Positions 296 through 22,195 of a DNA stretch of 64,000 nucleotides are shown here, one piece after another. The stretch comes from an uncultured Chlamydiae bacterium. GTDB lineage: Bacteria; Chlamydiota; Chlamydiia; Chlamydiales; JAJFMB01. Every line of letters starts with the position of its first letter. Positions within the stretch are counted from its first letter, which is position 1. Both the position numbers and the translations under genes were made by a program. The stretch lies in contig OY969110.1 in NCBI GenBank assembly GCA_963697995.1, positions 1,063,404 through 1,127,403 on the forward strand, given 5' to 3'. The notes under the pieces were generated by a model. The model worked only from the letters and a program-made list of their open reading frames with translations, ran no database searches and was not told the DNA's origin.

Positions 296-718
296 TTATT
301 TGCAGAGATCAGATGTGCAAGTTTTAGCCTCAGGTGCAGGTGTCAAAGCAGCTTTTCCCTCTGGAGAAGTTGTTTGATCTTGACCTTTCATCATGGCCTC
401 ATCGTCACCTTTTTTCATCATTGTTTCATCAGTAGCTTTTGTAGCTGCTGCTTTATCAGTTGTTGCAGGTGTCATTGCATTAGCATCAGCAGGAGCCGCT
501 ACATCAGTTGCAGCTCTTGTAGGATCTTGTGCCATCCCTGCATTCATGTTTTGTCCTGCGTTCATGTTTTGACCCGCATTCATATTTTGATCAGCAGTTT
601 TAAGAGCCTCAGTTTTAGGTCTGTCTGCTGTAGTTGTTCCCCAACCGAATTGAGCTGATACGTTACCAGCATAAAAAACACCTGCACATACTGTCATAAT
701 AGTTAAAAGTTTGTTCAT
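296..718 (-). CDS. Secreted low-complexity (A/T/K/D/M-rich) protein with a 3x NAGQNM repeat
   Basis: 140-aa ORF. The N-terminus MNKLLTIMTVCAGVFYAGNVSA looks like a signal peptide. It carries an in-frame 18-nt tandem repeat. No recognisable domain. Confidence 0.5.
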   Translation of the reverse strand: MNKLLTIMTVCAGVFYAGNVSAQFGWGTTTADRPKTEALKTADQNMNAGQNMNAGQNMNAGMAQDPTRAATDVAAPADANAMTPATTDKAAATKATDETMMKKGDDEAMMKGQDQTTSPEGKAALTPAPEAKTCTSDLCK

Positions 719-813
719 ATAATCCCCCTTATATTGTTTTTTGGGTTTATGGCTTAATTATATAAACGATATTTTAATTAAGTCAATTTAATTAATTCTA
801 ATAATTTAATTAA

Positions 814-1738
814 CTAATCAAAAAGTGCTGAAACAAATTGATTTACGTCAAAAGGTTCTAAATCTTCAATACCTTCACCGATACCGATAAATTTGACAGG
901 TGTGTGAAGTTGTTTTTGGATAGAGAAGACAATCCCTCCCTTAGCAGTCCCATCGAGCTTTGTTAAGACTAAGCCACTTAAGGGAACAAAGGAGTGGAAA
1001 ACATGGGCTTGGTCGATCCCATTTTGCCCGGCGGTGGCATCGAGCACGAGAAGAGTCTCGTGTGGCGCATCTGGAATCACTTTTTTGATCACTTTAGCCA
1101 CTTTTTTTAATTCCTCCATAAGAGGAGCTTTAGTGTGAAGCCTTCCTGCCGTATCTATAATGACAACATCGCAACCCCTTGATTTTCCGGCGCTTACAGC
1201 ATCAAAGGCCACAGAGGCCGGGTCGCTTCCGGCAACCCCCTTGACAAGATCGATCTTAAGTCTTTCAGACCAAATTTCAAGCTGTTCAGTAGCTGCTGCT
1301 CTAAAAGTATCGGCAGCTCCTATAAGAACTTTTTTCCCCTCAGTTTGAAATTTGTGAGCAAGTTTTGCAGTTGTGGTTGTTTTTCCATTCCCATTGACGC
1401 CGACGACGAGTATGACAAGAGGGGGTTTTTCAGGGGTATTAATCCCATTGGAGTTTTCTTTTAAACCCTCTTTTAAGTGTTTCTTTGACCTTTTCAATCA
1501 ACTCCTCTGTGGTGATATTGGGATTTTCGTTGTAGAGTGCTGTCGCTTTTTTTGAGAGAAGTGTTGCCGTATTGACTCCGAGGTCTGCTTCGTAAAAAAG
1601 GCGTTCAAGTTCATCTAACGTATTGGGATCTATACCTTTAGAAAAAAGGGAGCGCATTTTTTGCCCAAGAAGCGCTCCCGTTTGAGAAAGCATTCTCTTT
1701 ATTTTTTCAAAACGACTTTTTAAGAACTGAAAAACCAT
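814..1738 (-). pseudogene. ftsY: SRP receptor FtsY, with its reading frame interrupted by a frameshift or assembly indel around 1439-1497
   Basis: The NG GTPase domain lies in ORF 814..1497 (GVNGNGKTTTTAKLA, DTAGR, TKLDG). The N-domain helix bundle lies in the other frame (ORF 1439..1879, from internal Met at 1738: MVFQFLKSRFEKIKRMLSQTG...LDELERLFYEADLGVNTA). The two frames overlap for 59 nt in an A-rich stretch. A start at 1738 leaves a 59-bp divergent spacer to sucC. Confidence 0.85.
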
Positions 1739-1797
1739 CGATACACCTTGAAAGGAATAGTGATTATATCGGATAAATTGTTTTAAGGGAAGGTGGT

Positions 1798-2967
1798 ATG
1801 CATATACACGAATTTCAGACAAAAGAGATTTTATCAGACTTTGATATCCCTGTGCCTCCTTTTTTTGTCGCATCGACACTGGAAGAAGTAGAACAGATCA
1901 TTAAAGATAAGGGATTAAAGCAAGCTGTCGTAAAAGCTCAAGTGCACGCTGGTGGAAGAGGAAAGGCGGGGGGGGTAAAAATCGCTAAAAACCCGGAGGA
2001 GATTCTATTATTCTCTAAACAGCTTTTAAAGACCTATCTTGTGACAAAACAGACAGGAAAAGAGGGGCAGTTTATAGATAAAGTATTGATTACCCCTCTT
2101 GTTAAAATTAAAAAAGAATATTACGTGGCAGCTCTTATCGACAGAAAACTTAAGATGCCGCTTTTGATGGTATCTTCTCATGGGGGAGTTGACATTGAAG
2201 AGGTGGCTGCAAGTTCAAAAGAGGCGATAAAAAAAGTACCAATCTTGTTGAATGGGTCGATTAGGGGTTACAACATTGAAGCGGTGTTAAAATTTTTGGA
2301 TTGGAAAGAGGATTTAAAAGAGGTTGGAAAAAAGTTTCTTCTTTCTTTGGCAAAAGCCTTTATCACATTAGATGCTTCATTAATAGAGATCAATCCTTTG
2401 GTGTTGACTGAGGAGGGAGAGCTTTTGGTGTTGGATGCCAAAATGACAATTGATGATAATGCCTCCTTTAGGCAAAAAAAAATCTTCGAGTATTACGATG
2501 AATCGCAATTGTCCCCCCTTGAAGCTGATGCTAAAAGACATCATCTAGAGTATGTCGCTTTAGAGGGCACTATTGGGTGTATGGTCAATGGGGCAGGTCT
2601 TGCGATGGCCACGATGGACCTGATTAAATATTTTGGGGGCTCTCCTGCAAACTTTTTAGATGTCGGGGGATCAGCCCCAAAAGAGAGGGTTGCTGAAGCG
2701 TTTAAAATTTTGCTTTCAGACAAAAAAGTGAAAGTGATCTTTGTCAATATTTTTGGGGGAATCATGAACTGCAAAACGTTAGCAGAAGGGATTGTTGAGG
2801 CGGCAGATGAAGTTGGTTTAAAGATTCCTCTTGTCGTGAGAATGGAAGGGACAGATGTGGAGGGGGGAAGAGCTATTTTTGCAAAATCTAATCTTGAGAT
2901 AAAGAGTTTTTTGTCTTTAAGGGAAGCAGCCAAAGCATCTGTAATGCTCTCAGGAGTTAAGGCATGA
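1798..2967 (+). CDS. sucC: Succinyl-CoA synthetase beta subunit
   Basis: 389 aa. [12 protein letters not shown]..., an ATP-grasp region ([18 protein letters not shown]) and a C-terminal ligase-CoA region ([15 protein letters not shown]). Overlaps the sucD start by 4 nt. Confidence 0.95.
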
Positions 2968-3855
2968 GTATTTTAATTAATAAAAAGACGAAAGTGATCA
3001 CTCAAGGGATTACCGGAAAAGCGGGGCGGTTTCACACAGAGGAGTGTCTTAAGTATGGCTCTCGATTTGTTGGAGGGGTGACTCCTGGTAAGGGGGGAGA
3101 GACGATTTTTGGTCTCCCGATTTTTGATAGTGTCCTAGAGGCAAAAAAATACACCTCTTGTGATGCAACGATGATTTTTGTTCCGGCCCCATTTGCTATG
3201 GAGGCTATTTTGGAGGCAGAGGAGGCTAAAATTCCTCTTATCGTGTGTATTACCGAGGGAATTGCTGTTCGCGATATGTTAGAAGTCTCCTTTATCATGA
3301 GTAAAAGCGAGAGCCGCTTAATTGGCCCAAACTGTCCTGGAATTATTACGCCGGGAGAGTGTAAAATTGGGATTATGCCAGGGTATATTCACCAAAAGGG
3401 GAAAGTGGGGATTGTATCGCGCTCTGGAACACTGACGTATGAGGCTGTTTTTCAGACGACAGAGGCAAAACTTGGGCAATCGACTTGTGTGGGGATTGGA
3501 GGAGATCCGTTAAATGGGACGAGTTTTATCGATTGTCTAAAGCTTTTTGAAAATGACCCTCAAACTGAGGTGATTTTGATGATTGGGGAGATTGGGGGAG
3601 AGGCAGAAGAGGAGGCCGCTGAATACATTAAGCGACACATGAACAAAGCCTGTTGCCGCATTTATCGCAGGGGTAACAGCTCCTCCAAATAAGAGAATGG
3701 GTCATGCCGGAGCGATCATTTCAGATCGAGTGGGAGGAGCTCTTGAGAAGATTGAGGCTCTTGAAAAAGCGGGGGTTGTTGTAGCCAAAACTTCTGCCGA
3801 TATGGCAGAGGCTGTTTTAGAAGCATTAAAGAGAAGAGAGGGAAAGGATGATTGA
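2964..3855 (+). pseudogene. sucD: Succinyl-CoA synthetase alpha subunit, frameshifted near 3645-3655
   Basis: ORF 2964..3692 encodes [21 protein letters not shown]...[11 protein letters not shown]...GIGGDP and then degenerates ([16 protein letters not shown]). The +1 frame continues with the expected conserved C-terminus [50 protein letters not shown]..., ending at TGA 3853-3855. Confidence 0.85.
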
Positions 3856-4477
3856 ATTTTATTTAGGGAACATTCCGGTGAGAATCCAACCCCATTTTTG
3901 GATTTTGGCCCTATTGATTGGGTATTTAAGCTCTTACTCTATTGTAGGGACTCTTCTTTGGGTGATTGTGATTTTTTACTCCGTTCTTTTTCACGAGCTT
4001 GGACATGCCCTAACAGCTCTTTATTTTGGCCAAGATGCTGAAATTACCCTTCAAATGTCTGGAGGGGTGACTGAGAGAAGGGGCAACTCTCTACCCCTTT
4101 GGAAAGAGTTTTTCATAGTATTTAACGGCCCTCTTTTTGGTTTTTTGTTGTTTATTTTAGCTTTTCAGCTCTATCAAAGATTTCCCCTAATTCCTGATCC
4201 TTTAGTCTATATTTTGGGGGCCACGATTTTCGTCAATTTGTACTGGACTTTGCTCAATTTGCTTCCAATTCAACCGCTTGATGGGGGAAAACTTGCGATG
4301 ATCGTGCTTTGCTCTTTATTTGGATCGGCCGGAGTGACTCTCTCGTGGATCATAGGGGTTTTGGTAGCTGCCTTTGTGAGTCTTTATTTTTTCATGAAGG
4401 GGCTTTTATTTGCGGGGGCGATTTTTCTTTTTTTCGCTTTTGAAGGGGCGCAAAAGGTTTTTAATAGCCGCCGTTAA
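3848..4477 (+). CDS. Peptidase M50 family (site-2 protease-like) membrane metalloprotease
   Basis: 209 aa and polytopic. It has an HExxH motif ([10 protein letters not shown]) and [11 protein letters not shown], the M50 LDG motif. Confidence 0.7.
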
Positions 4478-6010: not shown

Positions 6011-6106
6011 CACTAAAGGAAAGGAAAAGTTTTTTAAAAAAGCAAAATCGAGAGGGGCTCAATAAAGCTTCGTTGCTTTTTTAAAAACTTTTCCTTTCCT
6101 TTAGTG
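6011..6106. repeat. Near-perfect 34/35-bp inverted repeat with a 27-nt loop, the core of a multi-hairpin intergenic element
   Basis: The left arm cactaaaggaaaggaaaagttttttaaaaaagcaa (6011-6045) is the reverse complement of 6073-6106 except for one extra T. It is flanked by hairpins at 5991-6009 and 6107-6123, and by a C7 run (5982-5988) and a G6 run (6124-6129). Confidence 0.8.
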
Positions 6107-6398
6107 TGGCGCGGTTTGCGCCAGGGGGGTAGTTCCTAAGCTTTAGGGACACCTTTGCTACTTCAATAGTGACAAGCACCCGAAAAGAGCTTGGGTAGAT
6201 GCGAAATAGGGTAAATTCTCTTTTCCTTTATCAAGCCTATCAAGTGTATCCGATTTATCATGTTTTTACTTCTTGAGGAGTAAAAAAACGTGCGCCCATT
6301 TGTGATATTTAGCAAAATTTTTGAAACTCAAATTGAAACCTTTGTAGATAGAGTACCCTTTCGAGAGAGGTCTATTTTATTCCTAATATGAGCTTAAG

Positions 6399-7940
6399 TT
6401 ATTGCGTTAAGGTGAGCGATTTTTTAACTTCGTCCACATCCACAAGGGCAATATACGCTTCTTTGTCTTCAACGCCGAGCGTTACAGCTATATGTTTTCC
6501 TTCGTGATCTAAACTCATCCCTGCGCAGTATTCGATGCCAATAGTTTTGATGTAAAATAAGGGGGAGGCTTTTGTGATTTCGAATTTTTTATTGAGGAAA
6601 ATAAAGCGATGAAGGTAGTAGCGTCTATCGGTGTAGGCCACTTCGTGTACAATAACTAGGTAGCCGTCATCGAAGGGAACAGGGCCGGCTGATCCTCTAA
6701 ATCGGGAAGTGTCTAAAAATGAGTTTGTTTCGATTACTTTTTTTGTGGTTCCCGTGATGGGATCCACTTTAAAGACAATTAAGGGATCGTATGAATAGAT
6801 CGCATGAATTTGTTGGTTTAGGACAAATGGAAGCCAGTTTTTTTCACACCGTTTTGGATCGGGTCCTTTAAGAGGAGTCATTTGCGTAATGCTTGCATCT
6901 TCTCCAATTTTACCAAGACCTATCTGAATCGTGTTGTTTGGATTGGCATCGACAAGCGAGCTTGTGAACCAATTCTCCCCATTGAACTTAAACAGGCGGC
7001 AATCCTCTTTCCCTTCGGCGTACCACCAGGGAAATTTGGGGTAGTTTGATTTATCGAGAATCTCTTCTTGCGAGAGGCGCTTAAATGATTTATCCATCGA
7101 AATAAGAAAATTGCGGGTGACGATTTTCTTGTTATTAGGATCGCGGGACCAGAAGTGTTTTGCATTTTTTTGCCCATAGTTGACGGTTCTACAAATCACA
7201 TCGTACCCATTCTCCGTCTTTTGGATCGAAGGGTTCATGGGATTGAAGTATTCAGTGTCAGTGATTTTAGGAAGCTGCACATCGACTGGGATAAGGGTTG
7301 CCTTAAGCTGCTTTGAATAGAAAATCGCGTTGTTGAGAGCCTGGTTTTTTGTGTACCAGGGAGCCTCCTTGTTGACAAGAAGGCGATTGAGCGCTTGATA
7401 CCCCTCCTCTTTGTAAGGAGTGTAAAAGCTTGCAATCGAGAGTTCCTCGTCGAGAAGGTAGCTGTAAACTTCTTTTGACATTAACGGGGTAAAAGTTTTA
7501 GGTTTTGGAAGAGCTTTTCCTTGTCTTGCATAAAAAGTGGCCATCTCATTTTGACCTTTATACCTAAAAAAACGTGCCAGCTCGTAGAGAGCTTCAGCTC
7601 TTTTGGGATTGAGTTGAAATGCTTTGGTAAACGCCTCTTCTGCGCGGTTAAGCTCCTTTTTCTCTTCATAACATTTTCCAAGGGTCAAATAGCTTCGCCA
7701 CACCTCTTCACTTAAATCTCCCCTTTCAACTCTCTTCTCAAGCCATTTCATCGAAGTATTGATGAGACCTAATTTTTTACTTGTTTCCCCCAAGTAAAAC
7801 ATCGTATGGGGATTGTTTGGATCCTTCTCAATCAGGTTTAAGAGTTTGACAAGATTTTTTTCCGTCTTGTCGGTATCTGCTAAGAGAAGTCCTGGTATTA
7901 CAAGTAAAAGAAGGATGCGGTACATGAAAAAAAGCCTCAT
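6399..7940 (-). CDS. Signal peptide plus TPR N-domain plus conserved ~300-aa C-domain (possibly a GH130/DUF377-like beta-propeller); paralog 1 of 3
   Basis: 513 aa with N-terminus MRLFFMYRILLLLVIPGLLLA. TPR-like helices are present (MFYLGETSKKLG...LGKCYEEKKELNRAEEAFTKAFQLNP). C-domain motifs are NPSI, RTVNY, EDCRLF, EKNWLPF, IYSYDP, GSAGPVPFDDGYLVIVHE, YLHRFIFL, SPLFY and GVEDK. Confidence 0.6.
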   Translation of the reverse strand: MRLFFMYRILLLLVIPGLLLADTDKTEKNLVKLLNLIEKDPNNPHTMFYLGETSKKLGLINTSMKWLEKRVERGDLSEEVWRSYLTLGKCYEEKKELNRAEEAFTKAFQLNPKRAEALYELARFFRYKGQNEMATFYARQGKALPKPKTFTPLMSKEVYSYLLDEELSIASFYTPYKEEGYQALNRLLVNKEAPWYTKNQALNNAIFYSKQLKATLIPVDVQLPKITDTEYFNPMNPSIQKTENGYDVICRTVNYGQKNAKHFWSRDPNNKKIVTRNFLISMDKSFKRLSQEEILDKSNYPKFPWWYAEGKEDCRLFKFNGENWFTSSLVDANPNNTIQIGLGKIGEDASITQMTPLKGPDPKRCEKNWLPFVLNQQIHAIYSYDPLIVFKVDPITGTTKKVIETNSFLDTSRFRGSAGPVPFDDGYLVIVHEVAYTDRRYYLHRFIFLNKKFEITKASPLFYIKTIGIEYCAGMSLDHEGKHIAVTLGVEDKEAYIALVDVDEVKKSLTLTQ

Positions 7941-9448
7941 TTGATTGAAAGATTATTTATTACAGACTCAACAGGAATAAGAGCTATAAAAGACGTTTTG
8001 TCTTCAACTCCTAAGGTGAGGACAACGTTTTTTTCCTCGTGGTCTAAAGTCATTCCTGAACAGTACTCAACCCCAATTGTTTTAAAGTAAAAGAGGGGAG
8101 AAGCTTTTGTGATGCGGAACTCTTGGTCTAAAAAGAGAAATCTGTGGTAGTAGAAAAATTTTCCTGCAAGAGCTCTTTCGTGCACGATGACAAGATAGCC
8201 CTCTTCAAAAGGGATGGGTCCAGAAGATCCTTGAAATCTGGTTCCATCAAAGGGACACTTGTGTTCTACCACTTTTTCACATTTTCCTGTGTCAAGATCG
8301 GGTTCTAAGATAATGGTTGGATCGTATGAGTAAATCATTTGGATCCGATCGTTGTGAACAAAGGGTAACCAGTTTTTTTCCGCTCTTTTGGGATTGGGGC
8401 TATTTAAAGGAATCACTTGTCCCGTCTTAAGTTTTCCTAAGGCTACTTGAGGCGTATGAGTGGGATTAGCTTCTGTAACAGCACAACTAAAAAAGTTCTC
8501 CCCATGATAAGAGAAAAGGCGGCAATCCTCATTGCCTTCCATTTCCCAAGGGAATTTGGTGTAGGTGGAGTGATCAAAGATCTCTTCTTCTGACGTGATG
8601 AGAAACTCTTTATCCGTTGTGACAAAAAGGTTGCGACTTATAAAGATGTATCGTTTGGGATCGCGGGTTAGTAAGCTTTGATTGTTCTCTTCATTGATTT
8701 TTTCATAATTGACTAAGCGGCAAATCAGTTCATACCCTGATTCTGTTCTCTGGATCGAAGGGTTAATAGGATAATACGATTCTTTTTCATCGATTTTTGG
8801 ACAGGTGACATTTAAGGGAATATAGGTGGCATCGATAGGTTTGATATAATAGCGAAGATTGCTAAAAGCTTGATTTTTGATGTGGAGGGGAGCCTCTTTG
8901 TTTAAAAGTAGTCTGTTGATCGCATGAAGCCCCTCCTCTTTTTGAGGGGAGTAGAAGGCGGCAATCGAGAGCTCCTCATCTAAGAGGTAGCTAGACACTT
9001 CCCTAGAAATGATCGATGACTCCTCCTCTGGTAGGGAGATTTTTTTTCCTTCAAGGGCATAATAAGTGCAAAGTTCATTTTGCTCTTTTTTCCTGGCAAG
9101 TTTTGCCAAATGATAGAATGGCTCAGCAAATTTGGGAGCGACTTCTCTTGCTTTAAGATAAAACCCATTGGCCTTATCGAAATCTTTTTTCTCCTCATAG
9201 GCTTTTCCAAGGGCAAGATAGGAGAGCAAAAGTTCCTTTGGAGTGCCTCCTAGGTCAATTTTTTTTTGGATCCACTTTAACGAAAGGTCTGTTAGACCCA
9301 AATTTTTGTACGTTTCAGCAATCTCTTCCATCAGATGAGCATTTTTGGGGTCGCAATCTTGCTTTTTTAGGAGCGCTAGAAGATCGTCCTCCGTTGTAGC
9401 TAGAAGAAGAGATGAGAAGGTTGAAAGGAGAAGAAAAGTTCGTAGCAT
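7937..9448 (-). CDS. Signal peptide plus TPR plus the same conserved C-domain; paralog 2 of 3
   Basis: 503 aa with the same architecture and motifs as 6399..7940 (EKNWLPF, GSSGPIPFEEGYLVIVHE, YYHRFLFL, SPLFYF, GVEDK). A 4-nt overlap with the downstream paralog suggests co-translation. Confidence 0.6.
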   Translation of the reverse strand: MLRTFLLLSTFSSLLLATTEDDLLALLKKQDCDPKNAHLMEEIAETYKNLGLTDLSLKWIQKKIDLGGTPKELLLSYLALGKAYEEKKDFDKANGFYLKAREVAPKFAEPFYHLAKLARKKEQNELCTYYALEGKKISLPEEESSIISREVSSYLLDEELSIAAFYSPQKEEGLHAINRLLLNKEAPLHIKNQAFSNLRYYIKPIDATYIPLNVTCPKIDEKESYYPINPSIQRTESGYELICRLVNYEKINEENNQSLLTRDPKRYIFISRNLFVTTDKEFLITSEEEIFDHSTYTKFPWEMEGNEDCRLFSYHGENFFSCAVTEANPTHTPQVALGKLKTGQVIPLNSPNPKRAEKNWLPFVHNDRIQMIYSYDPTIILEPDLDTGKCEKVVEHKCPFDGTRFQGSSGPIPFEEGYLVIVHERALAGKFFYYHRFLFLDQEFRITKASPLFYFKTIGVEYCSGMTLDHEEKNVVLTLGVEDKTSFIALIPVESVINNLSIK

Positions 9449-9457
9449 GTAGTGACC

Positions 9458-11436
9458 TCATTTTATGGAAAGATGTTTTTCAATCGATTCTTTTGGGAAA
9501 ATAGCAAGATACGCCTCTTTATCCTCTTTTCCAAACGAAACAATGATCTCATTTTCGTTGTGGCTCCAAGTCATTCCACAAGCAAATTCAATTCCTGGAG
9601 CTGTAAAGTAGAAAAGAGGGGAGATTTTGGTGATTTGAAACTCTTTGTTTAGAAAGAGGAATCGGTGGAGGTAGTTTCTTCTGTCGGTGATGTTGAGCTC
9701 GTGTATCAAGACCAAGTATCCATCGTCAAAAGGGATTGGGCCGGCAGAGCCACTAAAATTTGAGCAATCAAACTTTGAGTCGGTTTGGTAGGCAATTGTA
9801 TGGGAGCCCGTGTTGGGATCGAGTTTATAAATAGTGAGCGGCTCGTATTTATAAATGGCAAAGATTTCGTTTTGAAAAGCGAAGGGTAACCAGTTTTTTT
9901 CTTTTCTCAAAGGATTGGGGCTGACAAGAGGTGTCAGTTTATCGCAACAGGTGTGATCTTTTGAGATTTTCCCAAGAGCCATTTGCGTGGTATTAAGAAA
10001 ATTGCCGTCACTAATTGAGCAAGTAAACCAATCATCTCCTTTAAAATCAAAGAGATGATAATCCTCTTGTCCAATGACGGGATAGTATGGAAACCTTTCA
10101 TAAACTGCGTTGTCGACGATCTCTCTTTTTATAAGAGGAGTGAATTCTTTGTCAGTTGAGACTAGAATGTTTTTGTTGATAAAGATGCGTCCTCCTATTG
10201 GCCAATAATCCATCCCATTTTTGTGGTCATAGTTGACAAGGCGGTAATTGATGTCGTACCCCGTTTCTGTTTTTTTGATAGAGGGGTTTGTTGCAAAAAA
10301 GGGGTACTCTGGATTGAGGGGAATGGGAACAATTTTAGCTTGAAACTCTTCCATCGGCAAAAAGAGGCGGCTTGGAGTGAGCTTTTTCGAGGAGGGTTCA
10401 GAAGGGGGCGTTTTAATGAGTGTCATCATTGTGGTGATAAAATGATCTATAGTAAATACTTTTGCTTCTTCACTTTCAAGATACGCTCTAATATGAGTGA
10501 GGTACTCTTCATACTCCTCTTTATCCATGGTCTTTAAGAAGGTATAAAGATCTTCTTGGCTCTCAAAATCTTCTCTTGCAATGAAGCAATTTTTAGGAAT
10601 ATAGGAAGTGATATTTGGAGCGCCGTAATAGATAGGAACGACTCCTGCTTGAAAACAGGCGAAGATTTTTTCTGTGATATATCCTGGAATCCCTTTACAG
10701 TTTTCGTAGGCAAAAGCAAACCGGTAATTTTTTAAGACTTCGATTTTCTCTTTGTGGTCCTCCTGGGATCATTCCCTTGTAGATACTTAAGCCAAGAGGC
10801 GCCCATCCACTTGAGCCGAAAAGTTCAAAATCTTGCTTGTGGTGTGTTTCAAAAAAATCAGCCAGAATTTTTCTTTCACGCGTAGAGCGCATTTGGAGCT
10901 CGGGAGTATCCAAAACTTGCGACCATTGCGCAAAGTTTTTTGTTTTCAAAAGGGACGATGTCCTTCGTCATAGGGTAGAGGACAGGGTAGTGAATTTTGA
11001 AGTATTTATTATTGTCGACTAAGGTGTCGAGGACTGTGTAAATTTTTCCGAAATATTTGTGGTATTCAACATCGTAATCTTGCGGCATTGTCGCTGGGGG
11101 CTCCCAAAGAAATAAGATGAGTTTTTCTTTCGGATATTGGATCAAAAACTGTTCTGGAACTGATCTATCAAATGAGATCAAATAGTCGACTTGCGAGTGA
11201 TGCGGAGGGGGAGAATAGGGGTTACCTACTTGGAGATTAAACTCCTCATTTTTTGCAACCCGATAGAATTGCCGGGTCGCATCCTGATTGTAGTATATGG
11301 GAGGGCCTTCCCCTTCAAAAAGATGGTCTCCCCAAAAAAGAGGATAAAAGAGTGTGGTTTTTGTGGTCTCCACGGCGTTAAGCGTTACGAATAAGAAAAA
11401 AAACAAAATGGGCATCATCACCACCACTCTCCTCAA
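9458..11436 (-). pseudogene. GT10 (alpha-1,3-fucosyltransferase-like) domain fused to the conserved C-domain (paralog 3 of 3); the GT10 part is interrupted by two frameshifts
   Basis: Four pieces in three frames read as one protein. (1) 10876..11436 gives MRRVVVMMPILFFFLFVTLNA...ENKKLCAMVASF. (2) 10695..10949 gives RSTRERKILADFFETHHKQDFELFGSSGW. (3) The frame of ORF 9458..10528 is open upstream to about 10770 and encodes the GT10 signature EKIEVLKNYRFAFAYENCKGIPGYITEKIFACFQAGVVPIYYGAPNI (10726-10622). (4) It continues without a stop into the C-domain (NPSI, EKNWLPF, GSAGPIPFDDGYLVLIHE). Confidence 0.7.
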
Positions 11437-11515: not shown

Positions 11516-13508
11516 TTGTTGAAAACAATCTTTTTTAAGGAGTCTCATTTGAAACTTTTTCATCTAGTGTTGAGTCTTTTTTTCTTTTCCTATCTTGAAG
11601 CCGTGCCCTACAAGGTTGCTGTCATCTGGACAGGTCTTGGAGAGTTTGAGCTGGCACAAAGAATTGAAAAGTCTTGTCACAATTTAGGGTGGCAATGTCT
11701 TGTGGTCTATGGGGGAGATCCAGCGAATGATTTTCATAAGACGTTTGCCGATCTTGAAAATCCTCAAGACCCATCTTCCTTGATAGAGCATTTTCAACCC
11801 GATTTTTGTCTTCATTTAAAAGAAAATATGAAAATTTATCCTTATGCTCCGAATTACTTAGCTGTTACAGGTTGTTCAATTGAGTTTTTTGATGGGCATT
11901 TTGCTGTAAATGAAGAGTTATTTAAATATGATGGGTTTTTATATTCGAGTCCAAGAGTCAATTCTTTAAAGAGTTTTTTTGAGTCTTCCGGACGAAAATT
12001 TAATGGGTTACTTTGGTATGTTTCTTGCCCTAAGACTGACTATCAACCTATTGGGCATCAGACCCTTTTTTATTGTGGATTTCAGTGGGATCCAAAAAGA
12101 ACAAGTCCTGCTTTTTTAACTTTGTACACTCTTTTGAGTGGGAAAGGATATTTTGAGGTTTGGGGTCCTGAGAGTTCCTGGTCTTATTTGCCTCGATCGT
12201 ATCGAGGTTTTATTCCTTTTGGGGGAGATTTTCTTCAGAACGCGATTAGAGAGGCTGGAATAACTCTTGTATTACACTCACAACCCCATATTTATTTGGC
12301 AGCTCCCTCTTCTAGGATTTTTGAGGCCGCTGCTGCTTGTAGCGTTGCCATTTCAGACAGACACCCTTTTATTATGGAACATTTTGGCGATTCTGTTCTT
12401 TATGTTGATGATTATTTAAGGGGTGAAGAGATGTTTTCTCAAGTCGATGCTCATATGCGTTGGATTTTTGCTAATCCTAAGGAAGCTGAAGATCTTGCAA
12501 AAAGAGCTCATAATTTATTTGTAACGAAATTTTCTCTCGAGAAGCAACTTGAAAATTTAGGCAAAATGCACGAGAAATGTTTAGAGGATCGCTTTAAAAA
12601 AATCGTGATTGGGGGCGTTTGCAAAAATGTGGAATCCTGTTTGAAGAAAACGATTGAGAACATCGAAGTCTTTAGCGAGTCGTTTCTTCGATTATAGAGT
12701 CGTTATTTATGAAAATAACTCATCAGATGCTACGCCTCTTCTTTTAGCTGAGTGGGCAAGGCGTGATCCAAAAGTGAAAGTGATTTCTGAAATAATAGAT
12801 GATGTGGCCTCTTCTAGAACAGAGAAAATTTCAAACGCGAGAAATAAGCTTTTGTCTTGTATAAAAGAGTCACAATATAATGAGTTTGAAACCGTTGTTA
12901 TTGCAGATCTTGATTTTAAAACCGATTGGCCAATAGATGCAATTTGTGAAACAATTAACACTCCAGGGGATTGGGATGGAGTTTTTGCAAATGGGATACT
13001 CTCTTCTGGAGTCTATTACGATCGGTATGCTTTCCGGGATAAAGAGCACCCTTTTGGTCCTGAATTACTGGCAAATTCTTGGTGGACAGAAGTCACTGAT
13101 TGGGAAAGAGGGATTGTTTTTAAAGCTGATCAACCTTGGCATCCTGTTTATTCAGCTTTTGGAGGACTTGGGATTTATAAGAGACAAAGCCTTTTAAACG
13201 CTTTATATTCGGGTCTTGCGACCTGGGATTTACAAAAGTATATGTCTCAAATCATCCAAAAAACCTCTAAGGAAAATAAAGATTTAAAGTATTATGCTGA
13301 AATAAATGGCATCAATCTTGATTTAGATTTAAAAGATGTACCTATAGTTTTTCGATATAATTCTATCGGTACAGCGGAAAATTCTCCATGGGTCACCTGT
13401 TGTGAACATTTGCCATTTCATGCTTTGATGAGTTTGCAAGGGCATGGAAATTTTTACATTAATCCGAAAATGGTGATGAAATATTCCGATGAAGAAATAT
13501 TCCGATAA
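11516..13508 (+). pseudogene. Two-module glycosyltransferase (CgeB/GT1-like N-module plus GT-A, possibly CAP59/CMT1-like, C-module) with a 1-nt frameshift near 12680-12690
   Basis: N-module: RIFEAAAACSVAISDRHPFIMEHFGDSVLYVDD...ANPKEAEDLAKRAHN. ORF1 ends IENIEVFSESFLRL*. ORF2 continues SRFFDYRVVIYENNSSDATPLL.... This is collinear with the paralog 14248..15217 (IDNIEKLGAKFSDYRALIYENNSTDGT), so one reading frame is expected. The start codon is uncertain (TTG at 11516). Confidence 0.65.
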
Positions 13509-14247: not shown

Positions 14248-15217
14248 ATGAAGTTTGCTCAAATTTTTCTCTTTTGTGTTTTTTTTGAGACGGCTTTGAT
14301 GGGAGAGAGTGTCAGTCAGAAAAAAATACTGATCTGTGGGGTTTGTAAAGATACCGCGTTTGCAGCGGTAAATTCGATCGACAATATTGAAAAATTGGGT
14401 GCTAAATTTTCCGATTATCGGGCTTTAATTTATGAAAATAATTCAACAGATGGAACAGATTTTATTTACAAGGAGTGGGCTCAACAAAATAATCGTGTCG
14501 TTTTTCAATCAGAGGTGATTTTGGAGGCCGATCTTGCGCTTTCGCGCACTGAAAGAATAGCCAATAGTCGCAATCACCTCCTTTCATGGATTAAAGAGCC
14601 TCAATACGATGAGTTTCAATACGTGGTGATGGTAGATTCTTGACTTTATCACTCCTTGGCCAATAGAGGAGATTTGCAAAACGATTGAGACTAAAGGTCA
14701 TTGGGATGTGGTCGGAGCTAATGGTCTTCACGCGGAAGGGTATTATTATGATCGTTATGCTTATAGGGGAACAGATTACCCTTTTGGTCCTGAATTGATT
14801 GGAATTACATTTTGGGACGAGGTGAGTTCTGGCCCTAAGATTCATTTTAAAGAAGAGAAGTCTTGGGTTTCAGTTTATTCTGCCTTTGGCGGATTGGCTA
14901 TTTATAAGAGAAAAAGCCTCTTAAAAGCGAGTTATTCGGGTTTAGTCACAAGTGACTTAAAAAAGTACTACAGCTATATATTCAAACTAGTTTCAATCGA
15001 TAATCCTCAATTTAAGAAATATTGTGAATTAAATGGGTTTCGTAGAGGTTTTGATCTAGGTAAATATGCAGTTATTTTTAGACAAAATAGCCAGTGGTAT
15101 TCTGCTGATAACTATTTTAAAATCACTTGTTGCGAGCATGTCCCATTTCATGCTTCGATGGCTCTCCAGGGACATGGGAAATTTTATATCAATCCAAAAT
15201 TGATTATGAAGTATTAA
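14248..15217 (+). pseudogene. GT-A (possibly CAP59/CMT1-like) glycosyltransferase module, paralog of 12591..13508, with a 1-nt insertion near 14638
   Basis: ORF1 ends ...YVVMVDS*. Removing one T in gatTcttgac restores VVMVDLDFITPWPIEEICKTIETKGHWDVVGANGLHAEGYYYDRYAYRG, which is collinear with VVIADLDFKTDWPIDAICETINTPGDWDGVFANG...YYDRYAFRD in the paralog. Confidence 0.7.
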
Positions 15218-15257: not shown

Positions 15258-16958
15258 TTATTCTGCTATGCGTCTAGAATCGGCATACGTTAAAATCTTT
15301 TCGACAAAGGGATCATTTTTACTTTGTTCCGAATGACGGCTTATAAAAACGGCTCCAGGGCCAAATGAAACGCCACCTGATCCCAAATGAGTTGTACAAC
15401 GAGCGTTACAAACTTTGCGCTCATTGCAATAGAGGGAGCCAATAGTGGGAAACCCATCGTATGCCACAGCTCTTCTTCCTACCCAGCGGCGTGCAATACC
15501 CTTATTTTCTAAAGATGACAACTCTTCAGAAGAAATTGTTTTGCCCTTCGTGTGGTATCCTTGAGCTAATGAAACAAATTCAGGAAGAACATCGTTGACC
15601 ATGTTCAATTGAACGAGATTCCTATTTTTAGCAAACTCTTCCTCTTTATTTGGCTCCTTGTCGCCATAAAACGCTTTTGTGCCGGCCACTCCAATAAAAA
15701 TAGAGTTTTCTTTAAATCGAGCTTGCCAAGCCAAAACAATACCCTCATTATGCACTTCCATGCAGTGTGAAAAGTTTTTATACATTTCAATCTGATCCTT
15801 TGAAAGTGGGATAGTGATTAAAAGGGAAGCCCCTGCAAAACCTGCATAAGCCGGTTCATTAAATCCCAAATGATGGAGAGTTCCAATAGATTCCCCAGGG
15901 CAAAAAACATAGCGAGATTCGATTTTGGATTGAGTTTCAATTTGCTCTGTTCCATTGCTAAACTTTAAACCGATGATGCGCAAATCGTCCGAATTGGGAT
16001 CAAACATTATTGCTGTGACTTCTTTACCAAACTGAAGCTCAAAACAATCTCGGATTTGATTGTTAGAGTCTTTGTATTGTCCCATCGTTTTTTTTAGGTA
16101 AGCGTAGAATTTAGGCAGGAAAGAGCCTGTGTCGATGCACCCACCTGGTCTCCATAAAGCGACAGAGTCGTTTTTCCAAATGCGAACTTTATTGTTATCT
16201 AAAACGGAGTGATGATCGCAAAAATCGGCGAGGAATGGATCGATTGCGATCACTTCATCAGGTGATAAAATAGCGCAGTTTTTATACCCTAATTTTTCAT
16301 AGTCAGCCTGCATATTGAGAGCGCGATTCTTAGCATTTGGGATTCCGTAGATAAGGTCAATTCGATAGCCATCATGGAGAGTTTTTTTAGAATCGTTTCT
16401 TGGTTCTCGGCAAGGATTAAAATTAGAGGCTTCTAAAATACCCTTAAGTTCAGCATCCCCTTCATCATACATCTGTTGCCACAAATCCATACTTTTTTTG
16501 CCGAGCATCAATAATGAGAGCGTGCGGTCGTCATGATTTTTATCGGAACCGTAAATCGCTACAGCTTCTTTAAAATGGATGGCAGCTTCCGAATCATTAA
16601 CTCCTGCCACATCATCTACACGTATTCCACCTGGCTGACTAAAAAGGATGGAGAGTTTTTCCACTAATTCAGATCCACGAGGCACAACACTCAATATCTC
16701 ATCAATTGTAAGGCTCGGAACAATGTTATATGAAGTGTTAGTTGAGGATTTTCCACCGTTTGATTGAGAAAGGCTGTCTCCTTTCTCGTAAACTGTTATG
16801 CAAATTTTTTCACCATTTTTTTCAGCCTCTTTATGCGCATAATACGATTCGAGGGCTCCAACAATTCCTCCACCAATGATGTGGGTTTTATAGTTAACTG
16901 CAAAAGTTTCACTAAAGCTTAAGACACATGAAAGTATAAGAAAGAATATTTTTTTCAT
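15258..16958 (-). CDS. FAD-dependent oxidoreductase (DAO-like) with an N-terminal signal peptide
   Basis: 566 aa. MKKIFFLILSCVLSFSETFA is followed by a dinucleotide-binding motif (HIIGGGIVGALESYYA). The C-terminus has a DAO-like HLGSGGVSFGPG. Confidence 0.65.
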   Translation of the reverse strand: MKKIFFLILSCVLSFSETFAVNYKTHIIGGGIVGALESYYAHKEAEKNGEKICITVYEKGDSLSQSNGGKSSTNTSYNIVPSLTIDEILSVVPRGSELVEKLSILFSQPGGIRVDDVAGVNDSEAAIHFKEAVAIYGSDKNHDDRTLSLLMLGKKSMDLWQQMYDEGDAELKGILEASNFNPCREPRNDSKKTLHDGYRIDLIYGIPNAKNRALNMQADYEKLGYKNCAILSPDEVIAIDPFLADFCDHHSVLDNNKVRIWKNDSVALWRPGGCIDTGSFLPKFYAYLKKTMGQYKDSNNQIRDCFELQFGKEVTAIMFDPNSDDLRIIGLKFSNGTEQIETQSKIESRYVFCPGESIGTLHHLGFNEPAYAGFAGASLLITIPLSKDQIEMYKNFSHCMEVHNEGIVLAWQARFKENSIFIGVAGTKAFYGDKEPNKEEEFAKNRNLVQLNMVNDVLPEFVSLAQGYHTKGKTISSEELSSLENKGIARRWVGRRAVAYDGFPTIGSLYCNERKVCNARCTTHLGSGGVSFGPGAVFISRHSEQSKNDPFVEKILTYADSRRIAE

Positions 16959-17319
16959 TTGTTATCCTTAAAGGAGTTTTTTTTTATTTGAGAGATGACG
17001 CCATTTGCAGGAAATAATTTCAAAAACTGTTCGGATCTTTTAGTGTCGATCTTCGCTATGGGGACTTATAATCACAAGAAGTAACTTTCGTTCTCCGGGC
17101 TTTGATCGCAGCCAAATTTCTTTTTATTTTGTGAATTTATTTCTGCAAATGGTATTGCTAAAATCTCTCCATCGAAGCGATTGTGGCTTAAGGGGGTTTT
17201 TATTATCAATAGACTTCTTTCAAAACTCTAATCGCTTGCTAATTTCACCCTTTTCGTTAGCATGAAAGCTAAATATTTTTGACAATCTGAATAAAAATCA
17301 CTGATTTTATCGAACAAGG

Positions 17320-17487
17320 CTAGTACAGTTGAAAAAAGTTTTTACTGAAAATTTTAATTTGAAAGCTCCCGCGGTTCGTGTATCGAAAATGGGGCTAGTA
17401 TGGAGTTAATACAACCCCATTTTCATCTGCGACCCCGGGGCTTTGAAATCGAAATTTAAGCTAAAAACTTTTGTTCAACTGTACTAG
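17320..17487. repeat. 168-bp nested imperfect palindrome immediately downstream of tRNA-Ser
   Basis: Arms 17320-17374 and 17433-17487 pair; the outer 26 nt match 25/26 (ctagtacagttgaaAaaaagttttta). An inner hairpin pairs gaaaatgggg (17385-17394) with ccccattttc (17415-17424). Confidence 0.7.
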
Positions 17488-17524
17488 TATTGAAATAAGA
17501 AAATGATTTGATAAAAGAGGGAAT

Positions 17525-17609
17525 CGGAAGAGGAGGGATTCGAACCCCCGTTACCTTACGGTAAATCTGTTTTCGAAACAGACGCAATCGGCCACTCTGC
17601 CACTCTTCC
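17525..17609 (-). tRNA. tRNA-Ser (anticodon CGA), class II with a long variable arm; CCA not encoded
   Basis: Minus-strand sequence GGAAGAGTGGCAGAGTGGCCGATTGCGTCTGTTTCGAAAACAGATTTACCGTAAGGTAACGGGGGTTCGAATCCCTCCTCTTCCG. It has a 7-bp acceptor stem, anticodon loop TTCGAAA, variable stem TACC/GGTA and a T-loop TTCGAAT. Confidence 0.9.
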
Positions 17610-20086: not shown

Positions 20087-20208
20087 AATCTCTACTTGAT
20101 TTAAGCTCAAATGAGCAATTTCTTTTAGAAAAATTTTTAATAAAAGGTGATTTTTTTAAAAATCTTTATGAATGATTGCAACCTTTAAAATCTCTTCTAG
20201 GCGGTCTT

Positions 20209-21504: not shown

Positions 21505-21505
21505 A

Positions 21506-22195
21506 ATGAAGTCTTTTGTTTTGTTTTTTATATTAACGGTGTCTCTTTTTAAGGGGGAGTCTCTTTTTGGTAAGAGCCTGGAAGATGTTTTTACTAGCAT
21601 TTATAAGAAGGCCCATTGGGGAAAAAATGAAAATGGGGAAGGGTCTTCAGGGGGAGGATCGACTGTTGAAGTGACTGCTGAATATCGTGCTTTTTTACAG
21701 CATTTTATGGAGGAGAATAAAATCACTTCTGTTATTGATGTGGGGTGTGGTGATTGGGAATTTTCTAAACTGATCAATTGGAGAAATATCAAGTATACAG
21801 GTTATGATATTGTTAAACCGATAATTGAAAAAAACAAAATCCAGTTTGAAACAGATACAATCTCTTTCATCCATGGCAATGCTATCAAAATCGATCTGCC
21901 TGAAGCTGATTTGTTGATATGTAAGGAAGTTTTGCAGCATTTGTCCAATAAAGAGATTGCTTTGTTTTTAAAACAACTTCCTAAATTTAAGTACGCTATT
22001 TTGGTCAACGATGTCGACCGAGATACTTTAACAAGTGAGAATAGGGATATTGCCAGCGGGGGATACAGGCTTTTGGATTTAAGAAATCCCCCTTTCTCTT
22101 TAAAGGCGATGGTTGTCTTTAACTATCAAGCACCAGATCCCCATCGGGAGATGAAGCAGGTTTTGCTCTTTGTGAATGAGGGGAAGATTGAGTAA
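21506..22195 (+). CDS. Class I SAM-dependent methyltransferase with an N-terminal signal peptide
   Basis: The ATG at 21506 directly follows the upstream stop codon. MKSFVLFFILTVSLFKG. Motif I is VIDVGCGDWEF, and DLLICKEVLQHL is also present. Confidence 0.7.
   Translation: MKSFVLFFILTVSLFKGESLFGKSLEDVFTSIYKKAHWGKNENGEGSSGGGSTVEVTAEYRAFLQHFMEENKITSVIDVGCGDWEFSKLINWRNIKYTGYDIVKPIIEKNKIQFETDTISFIHGNAIKIDLPEADLLICKEVLQHLSNKEIALFLKQLPKFKYAILVNDVDRDTLTSENRDIASGGYRLLDLRNPPFSLKAMVVFNYQAPDPHREMKQVLLFVNEGKIE

What the first reader, a model, noticed from the sequence alone, without database searches (positions are those of the whole stretch)
9458..11436. GT10 fucosyltransferase-like signature fused to the propeller-like domain, but split by two frameshifts
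Seen in sequence. The frame of ORF 9458..10528 stays open upstream of its first Met to about 10770. There it encodes EKIEVLKNYRFAFAYENCKGIPGYITEKIFACFQAGVVPIYYGAPNITSYIPKNCFIAREDF (10750-10570). This matches the diagnostic alpha-1,3-fucosyltransferase motif Y(K/R)F.(L/F)A(F/Y)EN....(D/G)Y(V/I)TEK. The preceding GT10-like segments (ENKKLCAMVASF; RSTRERKILADFFETHHKQDFELFGSSGW) lie in two other frames (ORFs 10876..11436 and 10695..10949). Frame changes fall near 10880-10945 and 10745-10760, at short runs (T4, A3) rather than long homopolymers.

Established knowledge. GT10 enzymes are mainly eukaryotic Golgi enzymes, with a few bacterial examples such as the Helicobacter Lewis-antigen FucTs.

Inference. 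This is either a decaying gene or a full-length 659-aa bifunctional enzyme masked by assembly indels. Both the fusion architecture and the presence of GT10 in this lineage are noteworthy.
Basis: partly seen in the sequence, partly recalled or inferred. Interest (0 to 1): 0.6.

Follow-up and report, generated by a model that had tools for sequence, protein, structure and literature searches.

The report
Fucosyltransferase–propeller fusion gene, probably mis-assembled
A chlamydia-like bacterium carries one long gene that joins a fucose-adding enzyme to a propeller-shaped sugar enzyme. The two breaks in its reading frame are most likely single-base assembly errors, not gene decay.

Summary
On the minus strand, 11424..9458 reads as one gene split over three frames.

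- **GT10 part.** The piece carrying YRFAFAYENCKGIPGYITEK scores E 3.6e-16 against Pfam GT10. Intact ~370-aa chlamydial GT10 proteins tile collinearly across all three frames.
- **Breaks.** Both are one extra base, at ~10879 (TACGC[G]TGAA) and within 10748..10757 (CCACAAAGAG).
- **After repair.** Removing one base at each site gives a ~654-aa ORF that keeps all 26 family-invariant residues. The GT10 half models at pLDDT 92, with H. pylori FucT as top fold match.
- **C-terminal domain.** It models at pLDDT 95 as a five-bladed propeller, closest to GH130 beta-mannoside phosphorylases and GT108.
- **Why I favour artefact.** The first 15 kb holds four more frameshifts of the same polarity, including in ftsY and sucD. 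An independent read-derived contig, 99.6% identical, lacks the extra bases there and encodes intact FtsY and SucD. No independent sequence covers the GT10 sites, so this rests on analogy.
- **Fusion.** It is real and rare. A 72%-identical ortholog keeps the junction in frame, yet none of ~190 propeller relatives or 58 GT10 relatives shares the architecture.
- **GT10 in this lineage.** It is common, not noteworthy.

The parts
9458..11424 (-). Whole GT10-propeller gene. After removing one base at each of two sites it is about 654 codons from ATG 11424 (alternative TTG start at 11436).
   Evidence: Intact homologs tile across the three frames. The frame runs from the GT10 motif into the propeller without a stop.
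10876..11424 (-). Fragment 1: N-terminal hydrophobic segment (MMPILFFFLFVTLNAV) plus the N-terminal (acceptor-side) half of the GT10 GT-B fold. It ends at the artificial stop TGA 10878..10876.
   Evidence: On record as a separate 182-aa product, P0055, from NCBI and ENA only. It aligns to residues 1-209 of P0003.
10878..10881 (-). Frameshift 1: one extra base in TAC GCG T GAA. This is not a homopolymer. Repair gives ...PNALYAERKILADFFETHH...
   Evidence: Homologs read PNE[IL]Y[TS]ERRK.I.FFE across this point. Family-invariant R182 is restored.
10758..10877 (-). Fragment 2: the middle GT10 segment, ERKILADFFETHHKQDFELFGSSGWAPLGLSIYKGMIPGG, read in the second frame.
   Evidence: tblastn matches residues 201-238 of P0003 at 53% identity.
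10748..10757 (-). Frameshift 2: one extra base within CCACAAAGAG. Repair gives GGPQEKIEVLKNYRF (or GGPQKKIEV...).
   Evidence: Homologs read GG..[QAK]K[VI].K[LIM]K.YKF here, with the same spacing after a one-base removal.
10667..10726 (-). Alpha-1,3-fucosyltransferase donor-site motif YRFAFAYENCKGIPGYITEK.
   Evidence: This is the core of the PF00852 match. It aligns to plant FucTA, H. pylori FucT and human FUT9 chains at E 2e-9 to 7e-8.
10403..10750 (-). C-terminal (GDP-fucose-binding) half of the GT10 domain, up to the point where stand-alone homologs end (..MMTLIKTPP).
   Evidence: 59-64% identity to residues 240-356 of intact homologs. The model of the repaired GT10 half has pLDDT 92.3, and its top fold match is 2nzx at E 2e-12.
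10367..10402 (-). Short Ser/Pro/Lys-rich linker (SEPSSKKLTPSR) between the two domains.
   Evidence: It lies between the end of GT10 homology (10403) and the start of propeller homology (10366). It is conserved in frame in ortholog L003.
9461..10366 (-). C-terminal five-bladed beta-propeller of GH130/GT108-like fold. Family-invariant residues are S37, E109, D110, E164-K-N-W167, G214, H230, Y240, S257 and E268, numbered on window:9461-10390:-.
   Evidence: AF2 model pLDDT 94.6, pTM 0.91. Foldseek against PDB puts GH130 phosphorylases and Uhgb_MS first (E 4e-10 to 1e-8, TM 0.59-0.66) and GT108 MPT-4/MPT-1 at about 3-5e-6.
6399..9448 (-). Context: two tandem paralogs, each with a signal-like N-terminus, TPR repeats and the same propeller domain (7937..9448 and 6399..7940).
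   Evidence: 42-47% identity to the propeller domain. TPR Pfam hits. Logan contig L001 is 100% identical over 6066..9682.
11549..13508 (+). Context: a divergently transcribed two-domain glycosyltransferase gene (Glyco_trans_1_2 plus a CAP59/GT2-like GT-A domain). It is also split by a +1 frameshift near 12685..12695.
   Evidence: Pfam hits. The two frames join as ...IENIEVFSESF[L/F]DYRVVIYENNSSD..., inside the first beta-alpha-beta of the GT-A fold.

Best explanation
Region 11424..9458 (minus strand) is a single gene of an environmental chlamydia. It encodes a two-domain glycan-building enzyme of about 654 aa.

- **Layout.** An N-terminal hydrophobic segment is followed by a complete GT10 (alpha-1,3/4-fucosyltransferase-type, GT-B) domain, a short linker, and a five-bladed beta-propeller of the GH130/GT108 fold.
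- **The frame breaks.** Both are single extra bases, most probably introduced by the genome assembly. In the organism the gene is probably intact.
- **Inferred mechanism.** The GT10 domain transfers fucose from GDP-fucose, using the conserved E106 and the Y-x-T-E249-K250 donor site. The propeller uses its invariant G-x-E109-D110 and E-K-N-W motifs to make or remodel a beta-glycosidic (mannoside-like) linkage on the same glycan. The two domains would therefore act on one product within the surrounding glycosylation island.

Shown: domain identities, collinearity, fold, conservation of the fusion junction, and error-proneness of this stretch of the assembly. Inferred: that these two particular frameshifts are artefacts, and the substrates and order of the reactions.
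For: GT10 identity:
- Pfam PF00852 at E 3.6e-16.
- 51 homologs at E 2e-88 to 5e-43.
- Matches to PDB fucosyltransferases.
- The repaired half models at pLDDT 92.3 and its best fold match is H. pylori FucT 2nzx, E 2e-12.

One gene:
- Homologs tile the three frames in order.
- Apart from the two breaks there are no in-frame stops over about 654 codons.

The fusion is real:
- In the 72%-identical ortholog L003, the frame runs from the GT10 tail (EEYLSCIKAFLLSDEAKKF...) straight into the propeller.
- dN is 0.21 with dS saturated.
- In L006, an intact GT10 gene overlaps by 4 bp a GT2-TPR-propeller gene.

The frameshifts as artefacts:
- Six frameshifts lie in the first 15 kb, all +1: ftsY, sucD, two in this gene, 11549..13508 and 14248..15217.
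- Logan contig L009 matches window 708..4373 at 99.59%. It has 12 SNPs, 10 of them synonymous, and exactly three gaps where the window carries an extra base.
- Two of those three are non-homopolymer G insertions, in ftsY and in sucD. L009 encodes intact FtsY (307 aa) and SucD (296 aa).

Propeller:
- pLDDT 94.6.
- GH130 and GT108 are the top folds.
- The G-[LI]-E-D-C-R motif aligns to Uhgb_MS E136/D137.
- E136 is the beta-1,2 specificity residue according to PMC12814180.
- Other family members are fused to GT2, FkbM methyltransferase and HtrL_YibB domains.
Against: - No independent sequence covers 9683..11436. Logan contig L001 stops at 9682, and none of the window's proteins from 9.7-17 kb is found in Logan. 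The artefact call for these two sites therefore rests on analogy.
- L009 comes from a slightly different strain (synonymous SNPs), so the window's indels could in principle be strain-specific.
- Frameshifts cluster in 0.7-15 kb, and none was detected in 15-64 kb. That does not fit a uniform error rate.
- Glycosyltransferase genes are often truly inactivated.
- The propeller does not hit Pfam GH130 (PF04041) or any NCBIfam model. Its link to GH130 is fold-level only, at 11-14% identity.
- The N-terminal hydrophobic segment raises the question of where a nucleotide-sugar donor would be available.
Confidence: 0.65

Rival explanations
1. True, very recent pseudogene. Two real single-base insertions inactivated the fusion gene in this strain, so at most fragments are made (a 182-aa N-terminal piece, and possibly a 356-aa propeller protein from ATG 10528).
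For: The frameshifts are in the deposited sequence, and the fragments are on record as separate products. Two lesions lie within 130 bp of one gene. Two further glycosyltransferase genes in the island are also split. The island appears strain-variable, since Logan lacks identical proteins from 9.7-17 kb. Neither site is a long homopolymer.
Against: Lesions of the same polarity and type hit essential ftsY and sucD, and both genes are intact in a 99.6%-identical read-derived contig. All six frameshifts are +1, which is unexpected for natural indels. There is no other decay: about 654 codons are open after repair, all 26 invariant residues are kept, and both domains give high-confidence models.
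Confidence: 0.22
2. Regulated expression. The breaks would be bypassed by programmed +1 ribosomal frameshifting or transcriptional slippage, or they would represent phase variation, as in the Helicobacter fucosyltransferase genes.
For: From my own knowledge, H. pylori fut genes are switched by poly-C tracts and a slippery heptamer. Both breaks here have the same +1 polarity.
Against: There is no repeat tract or long homopolymer at either site: GCGTGAA and CCACAAAGAG. GCG-U is not a +1-slippery context. The same kind of break occurs in ftsY and sucD and is simply absent in the Logan contig.
Confidence: 0.02
3. Not a fusion. GT10 and the propeller are two neighbouring genes whose frames happen to be continuous, with the propeller protein starting at ATG 10528 or later.
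For: Gene callers report a 356-aa product here and a 318-aa product in L003. In L006, GT10 and a propeller protein are separate adjacent genes.
Against: The frame is open from the GT10 motif (10750) through the propeller with no stop. ATG 10528 lies inside the GT10 C-terminal helices that all homologs possess. In L003 the same frame is open to the contig edge and encodes the GT10 tail.
Confidence: 0.04

Closest known systems
Helicobacter pylori alpha-1,3/4-fucosyltransferases (FutA/FutB; CAZy GT10; PDB 2NZW/2NZX/2NZY)
   Same: Both have the GT-B fold, and H. pylori FucT is the top structural match (E 2e-12). They share the donor-site motif Y-x-F-x-x-A-x-E-N...Y-[IV]-T-E-K.
   Different: Identity is only about 14%. 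This protein has an N-terminal hydrophobic segment instead of the C-terminal heptad repeats and amphipathic tail (my own knowledge of HpFucT). It carries a C-terminal propeller domain. It has no poly-C phase-variation tract.
Stand-alone and multi-domain GT10 proteins of Chlamydiales, Parachlamydiaceae, Verrucomicrobiota and Babeliales-type assemblies (e.g. P0003 at 366 aa; GT2+GT10 proteins P0009-P0011)
   Same: 42-54% identity over the whole GT10 domain, collinear, with an N-terminal hydrophobic segment. They sit in glycosyltransferase clusters.
   Different: Their fusion partners are GT2, a GT92-like domain or unassigned GT-A-like domains, never the propeller.
GH130 beta-mannoside phosphorylases and mannoside synthase (Uhgb_MS, Teth514_1788, Lin0857, TM1225) and GT108 Leishmania mannosyltransferase/phosphorylases (MTP/MPT)
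   Same: Five-bladed beta-propeller: TM 0.59-0.66 at E 4e-10 to 1e-8 for GH130, and E 3-5e-6 for GT108. The G-x-E-D motif aligns with E136/D137 of Uhgb_MS. Within this clan the same fold supports phosphorylase, hydrolase and nucleotide-sugar transferase chemistry (PMC12814180).
   Different: Identity is 11-14%, and there is no match to Pfam PF04041. The phosphate-binding residues were not mapped. The domain is always found with export-like N-termini, TPR repeats or glycan-modifying partner domains, rather than as a cytosolic catabolic enzyme.
TPR-propeller protein family (about 500 aa; a few members labelled by JGI as 'predicted GH43/DUF377 family glycosyl hydrolase')
   Same: The same propeller domain at 35-53% identity. 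Two paralogs sit next door. The family is large, with 2,880 50%-identity cluster representatives at E<=1e-3.
   Different: Here GT10 replaces the TPR module. This was seen only in this window and in its ortholog L003.

Membership tests
CAZy GT10 / Pfam Glyco_transf_10 | Significant match to the GT10 C-terminal (donor-binding) domain profile PF00852 | tested here: met
   E 3.6e-16, 59.8 bits against a gathering cut-off of 23.9; profile positions 47-140 of 182.
CAZy GT10 / Pfam Glyco_transf_10 | Alpha-1,3-FucT motif Y-x-F-x-[LFV]-[AS]-[FY]-E-N ... Y-[VI]-T-E-K | tested here: met
   YRFAFAYENCKGIPGYITEK at 10726..10667. It aligns to the same motif in plant FucTA, HpFucT and FUT9.
CAZy GT10 / Pfam Glyco_transf_10 | Complete two-lobed GT-B fold collinear with characterised or intact members | tested here: met
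   Met only after removing one base at each of two sites. The alignment to 28 intact homologs is gap-free at both junctions and all 26 invariant columns are kept. pLDDT 92.3. 2nzx, 2nzw and FUT9 are the top fold matches.
CAZy GT10 / Pfam Glyco_transf_10 | N-terminal domain profile PF17039 (Glyco_tran_10_N) | tested here: not met
   No hit at E<=0.01. The intact bacterial homologs also carry only PF00852, so this profile does not describe this clade.
CAZy GT10 / Pfam Glyco_transf_10 | Uninterrupted reading frame (a functional gene) | tested here: not met
   Two +1 frameshifts are present in the assembly. They are judged probable artefacts by analogy with ftsY and sucD.
CAZy GT10 / Pfam Glyco_transf_10 | GDP-fucose-dependent fucosyl transfer | not testable with these tools
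   Requires an enzyme assay.
GH130 / GT108 clan (five-bladed propeller beta-mannoside enzymes) | Five-bladed beta-propeller fold superimposable on GH130 or GT108 structures | tested here: met
   Model pLDDT 94.6. Foldseek gives 5b0p, 1vkd, 9erg, 7fip and 4udg at E 4e-10 to 2e-9 with TM up to 0.66, and 6q50 and 6q4w at about 3-5e-6.
GH130 / GT108 clan (five-bladed propeller beta-mannoside enzymes) | Sequence membership (Pfam PF04041 Glyco_hydro_130, or a significant profile hit to GH130 chains) | tested here: not met
   No Pfam hit. The family profile against PDB sequences gives Uhgb_MS only at E 0.31. No NCBIfam hit.
GH130 / GT108 clan (five-bladed propeller beta-mannoside enzymes) | Catalytic Asp in the G-x-[EY]-D-[PC]-R strand | tested here: inconclusive
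   Family-invariant E109-D110 in G-x-E-D-x-[RH]-L aligns to G-I-E136-D137-C-R of Uhgb_MS, but the alignment itself is not significant. No residue-level structural superposition was available.
GH130 / GT108 clan (five-bladed propeller beta-mannoside enzymes) | [quoted passage not shown] | not tested
   Model coordinates cannot be inspected with these tools. Candidates are K165, H230, H242 and R243.

The most novel reading that the evidence does not exclude
The gene is intact in vivo, and its propeller belongs to a large, undescribed bacterial family of GT108-like beta-propeller glycosyltransferases. These would use a sugar-1-phosphate or a nucleotide sugar and would be recruited as a module next to GT10, GT2, FkbM methyltransferase or TPR domains. 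In this fusion the propeller would work in tandem with a fucosyltransferase to build a fucosylated beta-mannoside-type glycan on an exported or surface structure of an environmental chlamydia.
Probability: 0.25. Interest if true: 0.6.

Novelty: new variant of a known kind. Interest (0 to 1): 0.35.

Why it matters
There are two practical lessons and one biological lead.

- **Assembly quality.** This stretch of a 'closed' 2.05-Mb chlamydial assembly carries single-base insertions that break even ftsY and sucD. Apparent pseudogenes in it, this one included, should not be scored as gene decay without checking reads.
- **GT10 distribution.** GT10 fucosyltransferases are widespread in chlamydia-like and other amoeba-associated bacteria, usually as modules of multi-domain glycosyltransferases. 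They are not an oddity of Helicobacter.
- **The lead.** The propeller is GH130/GT108-like, invisible to Pfam and NCBIfam, and has about 2,900 family representatives at 50% identity. It is repeatedly fused to, or adjacent to, glycan-building enzymes. That suggests a biosynthetic rather than catabolic role, which the GT10 fusion could be used to test.

Tried and rejected
Searches for an intact ortholog or an independent copy of 9683..11436:
- The genome-contig scan gave only a distant WOR-1 GT10.
- Two metagenome-contig scans found nothing.
- A protein search with the N-terminal 230 aa found nothing between 50% and 100% identity.
- Exact look-ups of the fragments show them only in NCBI and ENA.
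- Exact look-ups of repaired neighbouring genes, and of intact genes from 11.5-17 kb, showed that Logan holds no identical protein there.
- Look-ups of PGK, the GT2 at 4584 and EF-G were not on record, probably because of start-codon choice.

Hypotheses rejected:
- Phase variation or programmed frameshifting, because neither site has a repeat or slippery sequence.
- 'Two separate genes', because the frame is continuous here and in L003.
- My first guess that the sucD and ftsY errors were A-run expansions. The Logan contig shows that two of the three are non-homopolymer G insertions.

Limits of the tools:
- The first PDB profile search was swamped by TPR hits, so I repeated it with a trimmed alignment.
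- A literature search for chlamydial GT10 found nothing specific.
Full report
**The observation**

On the minus strand three overlapping open frames follow one another.
- ORF 10876..11436 holds ...FENKKLCAMVASFGYSRAPNALYA*.
- The frame of 10695..10949 holds ...RSTRERKILADFFETHHKQDFELFGSSGWAPLGLSIYKGMIPGG....
- The frame of ORF 9458..10528 is open up to 10768. From 10750 it reads EKIEVLKNYRFAFAYENCKGIPGYITEK....

The last piece scores E 3.6e-16 (59.8 bits, cut-off 23.9) against Pfam PF00852, the GT10 C-terminal domain.

A protein search with a joined sequence returned 51 GT10 proteins at E 2e-88 to 5e-43. Many are stand-alone proteins of about 370 aa, and sources name some of them Parachlamydiaceae, Chlamydiales, Verrucomicrobiota or Babeliales.

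In tblastn these intact proteins tile the three window frames in order. For P0003, residues 1-209 map to 11418..10852, 201-238 to 10877..10758 and 242-356 to 10747..10403.

**Position and nature of the breaks**

Homologs read ...PNE[IL]Y[TS]ERRK.I.FFE... where the window reads ...PNALYA* in one frame and ...ERKILADFFE... in the next. The first break therefore lies in TAC GCG T GAA, at about 10878-10881.

The second break lies in CCACAAAGAG (10748..10757), between the conserved GG and KIEVLKNYRF.

Each break is one extra base. Removing one base at each site gives an ORF of about 654 codons from ATG 11424, which is the start used for the 182-aa product on record.

The repaired GT10 half behaves like an intact family member:
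- It aligns to 28 intact homologs without a gap at either junction.
- It keeps all 26 invariant columns, including E106, R182, E238, E249 and K250.
- It models at pLDDT 92.3, pTM 0.88.
- Its best fold matches are H. pylori alpha-1,3-FucT (2nzx, E 2e-12) and human FUT9.
- Sequence matches to solved fucosyltransferases are at E 2e-9 to 7e-8.

**The C-terminal domain**

Pfam and NCBIfam see nothing in it. Relatives are mostly proteins of about 500 aa with N-terminal TPR repeats, and JGI labels a few 'predicted GH43/DUF377 family glycosyl hydrolase'. Two such paralogs lie immediately downstream, at 7937..9448 and 6399..7940.

An AlphaFold model built on 43 sequences has pLDDT 94.6 and pTM 0.91 and is all-beta. 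Foldseek against the PDB ranks the folds as follows:
- GH130 beta-mannoside phosphorylases, the Uhgb_MS mannoside synthase and TM1225 come first (E 4e-10 to 1e-8, TM 0.59-0.66, 11-14% identity).
- The GT108 Leishmania enzymes come next (about 3-5e-6).
- GH43 comes after that.

The family profile hits Uhgb_MS only at E 0.31. The aligned stretch, however, is the invariant G-x-E109-D110 motif against G-I-E136-D137-C-R. According to PMC12814180, E136 is the beta-1,2-specificity residue. The same paper reports that beta-1,2 GH130 phosphorylases also have weak GDP-mannose transferase activity, and that GT108 shares the fold.

The family is large, with 2,880 50%-identity representatives at E<=1e-3. 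Its members are fused to TPR, GT2+TPR, FkbM methyltransferase or HtrL_YibB modules. That points to glycan biosynthesis or remodelling rather than catabolism.

**Is the fusion real?**

Yes, and it is rare.
- The closest relative, P0056 (72% identity), lies on a 2.7-kb JGI contig, L003. There the reading frame is open to the contig edge and encodes the GT10 C-terminal helices (EEYLSCIKAFLLSDEAKKF...TMMTL..TPP) directly before the propeller.
- Between the window and L003, dN is 0.21 with dS saturated.
- In a 3.1-Mb chlamydia-like genome, L006, an intact GT10 gene overlaps by 4 bp a GT2-TPR-propeller gene. The two functions are therefore linked elsewhere as neighbours.
- None of about 190 propeller relatives contains GT10, and none of 58 GT10 relatives contains the propeller.

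**Decay or assembly error?**

I looked at the rest of the window. Four more genes in the first 15 kb are split by frameshifts, all of the same +1 polarity:
- ftsY: the SRP54_N domain lies in 1439..1879 and the GTPase domain in 814..1497.
- sucD: the CoA-ligase domain is cut at profile position 76 of 128, and the rest lies in the next frame.
- The two-domain glycosyltransferase gene 11549..13508.
- A GT-A paralog, 14248..15217, split inside its DxD region.

None was detected among the Pfam-covered genes of 15-64 kb.

Exact look-ups then gave the key result. A repaired FtsY of 307 aa and an intact SucD of 296 aa exist in the Logan read-derived assembly of run ERR11563597. The contig carrying them, L009, matches window 708..4373 at 99.59%.
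- It has 12 substitutions, of which 10 are synonymous, so it is a natural sister strain.
- It has exactly three gaps, and in each the window carries the extra base: CAATT[T]AATT, TTTTAA[G]TGTTT (ftsY) and CACAT[G]AACAAAG (sucD).
- Two of the three are non-homopolymer insertions, like the first GT10 break.

A second Logan contig, L001, is 100% identical to window 6066..9682, and that stretch has no frameshift.

A viable organism cannot have a broken ftsY. The simplest reading is that this part of the deposited assembly contains spurious single-base insertions, perhaps where co-occurring strains differ. On that reading the two GT10 breaks are of the same kind.

This is not proven for the GT10 sites. 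Logan breaks at 9682 and holds no identical protein from 9.7-17 kb, and no other ortholog covering the sites exists in any collection searched. I put the artefact reading at roughly 0.7-0.75, a true recent pseudogene at about 0.2, and regulated frameshifting or phase variation at a few percent, since neither site has a repeat or slippery sequence.

**Mechanism**

This part is inference. The N-terminal hydrophobic segment is shared by the GT10 homologs and by the TPR-propeller paralogs. It suggests membrane anchoring or export.

The GT10 domain would transfer fucose from GDP-fucose through the conserved donor site. The propeller, with a GH130-like acid (D110) and the E-K-N-W motif, would form or remodel a beta-linked, mannoside-like bond on the same glycan.

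The gene sits in an island that also holds a GT2, two TPR-propeller genes, a GT1-like/GT-A gene, a second GT-A gene, an FkbM methyltransferase, a GT34 and further methyltransferase and radical-SAM genes.

**Comparison and novelty**

The propeller is fold-level kin of GH130 and GT108 but fails sequence membership. The GT10-propeller combination is a new architecture, seen only here and in L003.

I rate the finding a new variant of a known kind, with modest interest (0.35). Its main value is twofold: a caution about assembly-induced pseudogenes, and a handle on an uncharacterised propeller family.

Noticed in passing
window 814..1879 (-): ftsY is split by one extra base (TTTTAA[G]TGTTT at 1477) into an SRP54_N ORF and a GTPase ORF. 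Logan contig L009, from a 99.6%-identical strain, encodes an intact 307-aa FtsY.
   Followed up: yes
window 2964..3853 (+): sucD is truncated at 3692 by one extra G (CACAT[G]AAC at 3641), and its C-terminal 50 aa continue in the next frame. Logan L009 encodes an intact 296-aa SucD. A third window-only extra base (T3 against T2) lies in the intergenic region at 787.
   Followed up: yes
window 11549..13508 (+): A two-domain glycosyltransferase gene (Glyco_trans_1_2 plus a CAP59/GT2-like GT-A domain) is split by a +1 frameshift near 12685..12695, inside the first beta-alpha-beta of the GT-A domain. Exact look-ups of two repaired versions were not found.
   Followed up: partly
window 14248..15217 (+): A paralog of that GT-A domain is split into 131-aa and 169-aa ORFs by a +1 frameshift at GAT[T]CTTGAC (about 14636). 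Repair restores the D-L-D (DxD) motif.
   Followed up: partly
window 6399..9448 (-); L003 1086..2671: There are two tandem TPR-propeller paralogs with signal-like N-termini. In the orthologous contig L003, the first paralog is only a 199-aa TPR protein (its propeller half is missing), followed directly by the second paralog.
   Followed up: partly
L006 10001..13260 and 16060..17604: In a 3.1-Mb chlamydia-like genome, an intact GT10 gene overlaps by 4 bp a 720-aa GT2-TPR-propeller gene. A further propeller protein lies 3 kb away, next to DDE transposase fragments.
   Followed up: partly
proteins P0247, P0250, P0226: The propeller domain also occurs fused to FkbM-type methyltransferase and HtrL_YibB domains, so it appears to be a mobile module of glycan-modifying proteins.
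   Followed up: partly
L004 3954..5043; L005 833..1922: The 53%-identical propeller homolog P0057 (283 aa) is preceded by an overlapping 89-aa ORF, which may be another split N-terminus. It lies between a GT90 gene with a methyltransferase gene and an AbiEi/AbiEii toxin-antitoxin pair.
   Followed up: no
window 31297..32250 (+): A 317-aa protein carries a eukaryote-type RhoGAP domain (E 8.5e-21) and is a likely host-targeting effector candidate.
   Followed up: no
window 34389..37830 (+); 27885..28607 (+): Two tandem TLC ATP/ADP translocase genes and a DUF2709 gene (E 1.5e-121) mark the genome as a chlamydia-like intracellular bacterium.
   Followed up: no
window 11377..11424 (-) and N-termini of P0001-P0051: The GT10 proteins of this clade nearly all start with a hydrophobic, signal-like or anchor-like segment. 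If they are exported, it is unclear where GDP-fucose would come from.
   Followed up: no
window 20176..22195 (+): A GT34 (GMA12/MNN10-type, mostly eukaryotic) glycosyltransferase ORF overlaps a methyltransferase ORF by 47 nt in another frame. I did not establish whether these are two genes or another split fusion.
   Followed up: no
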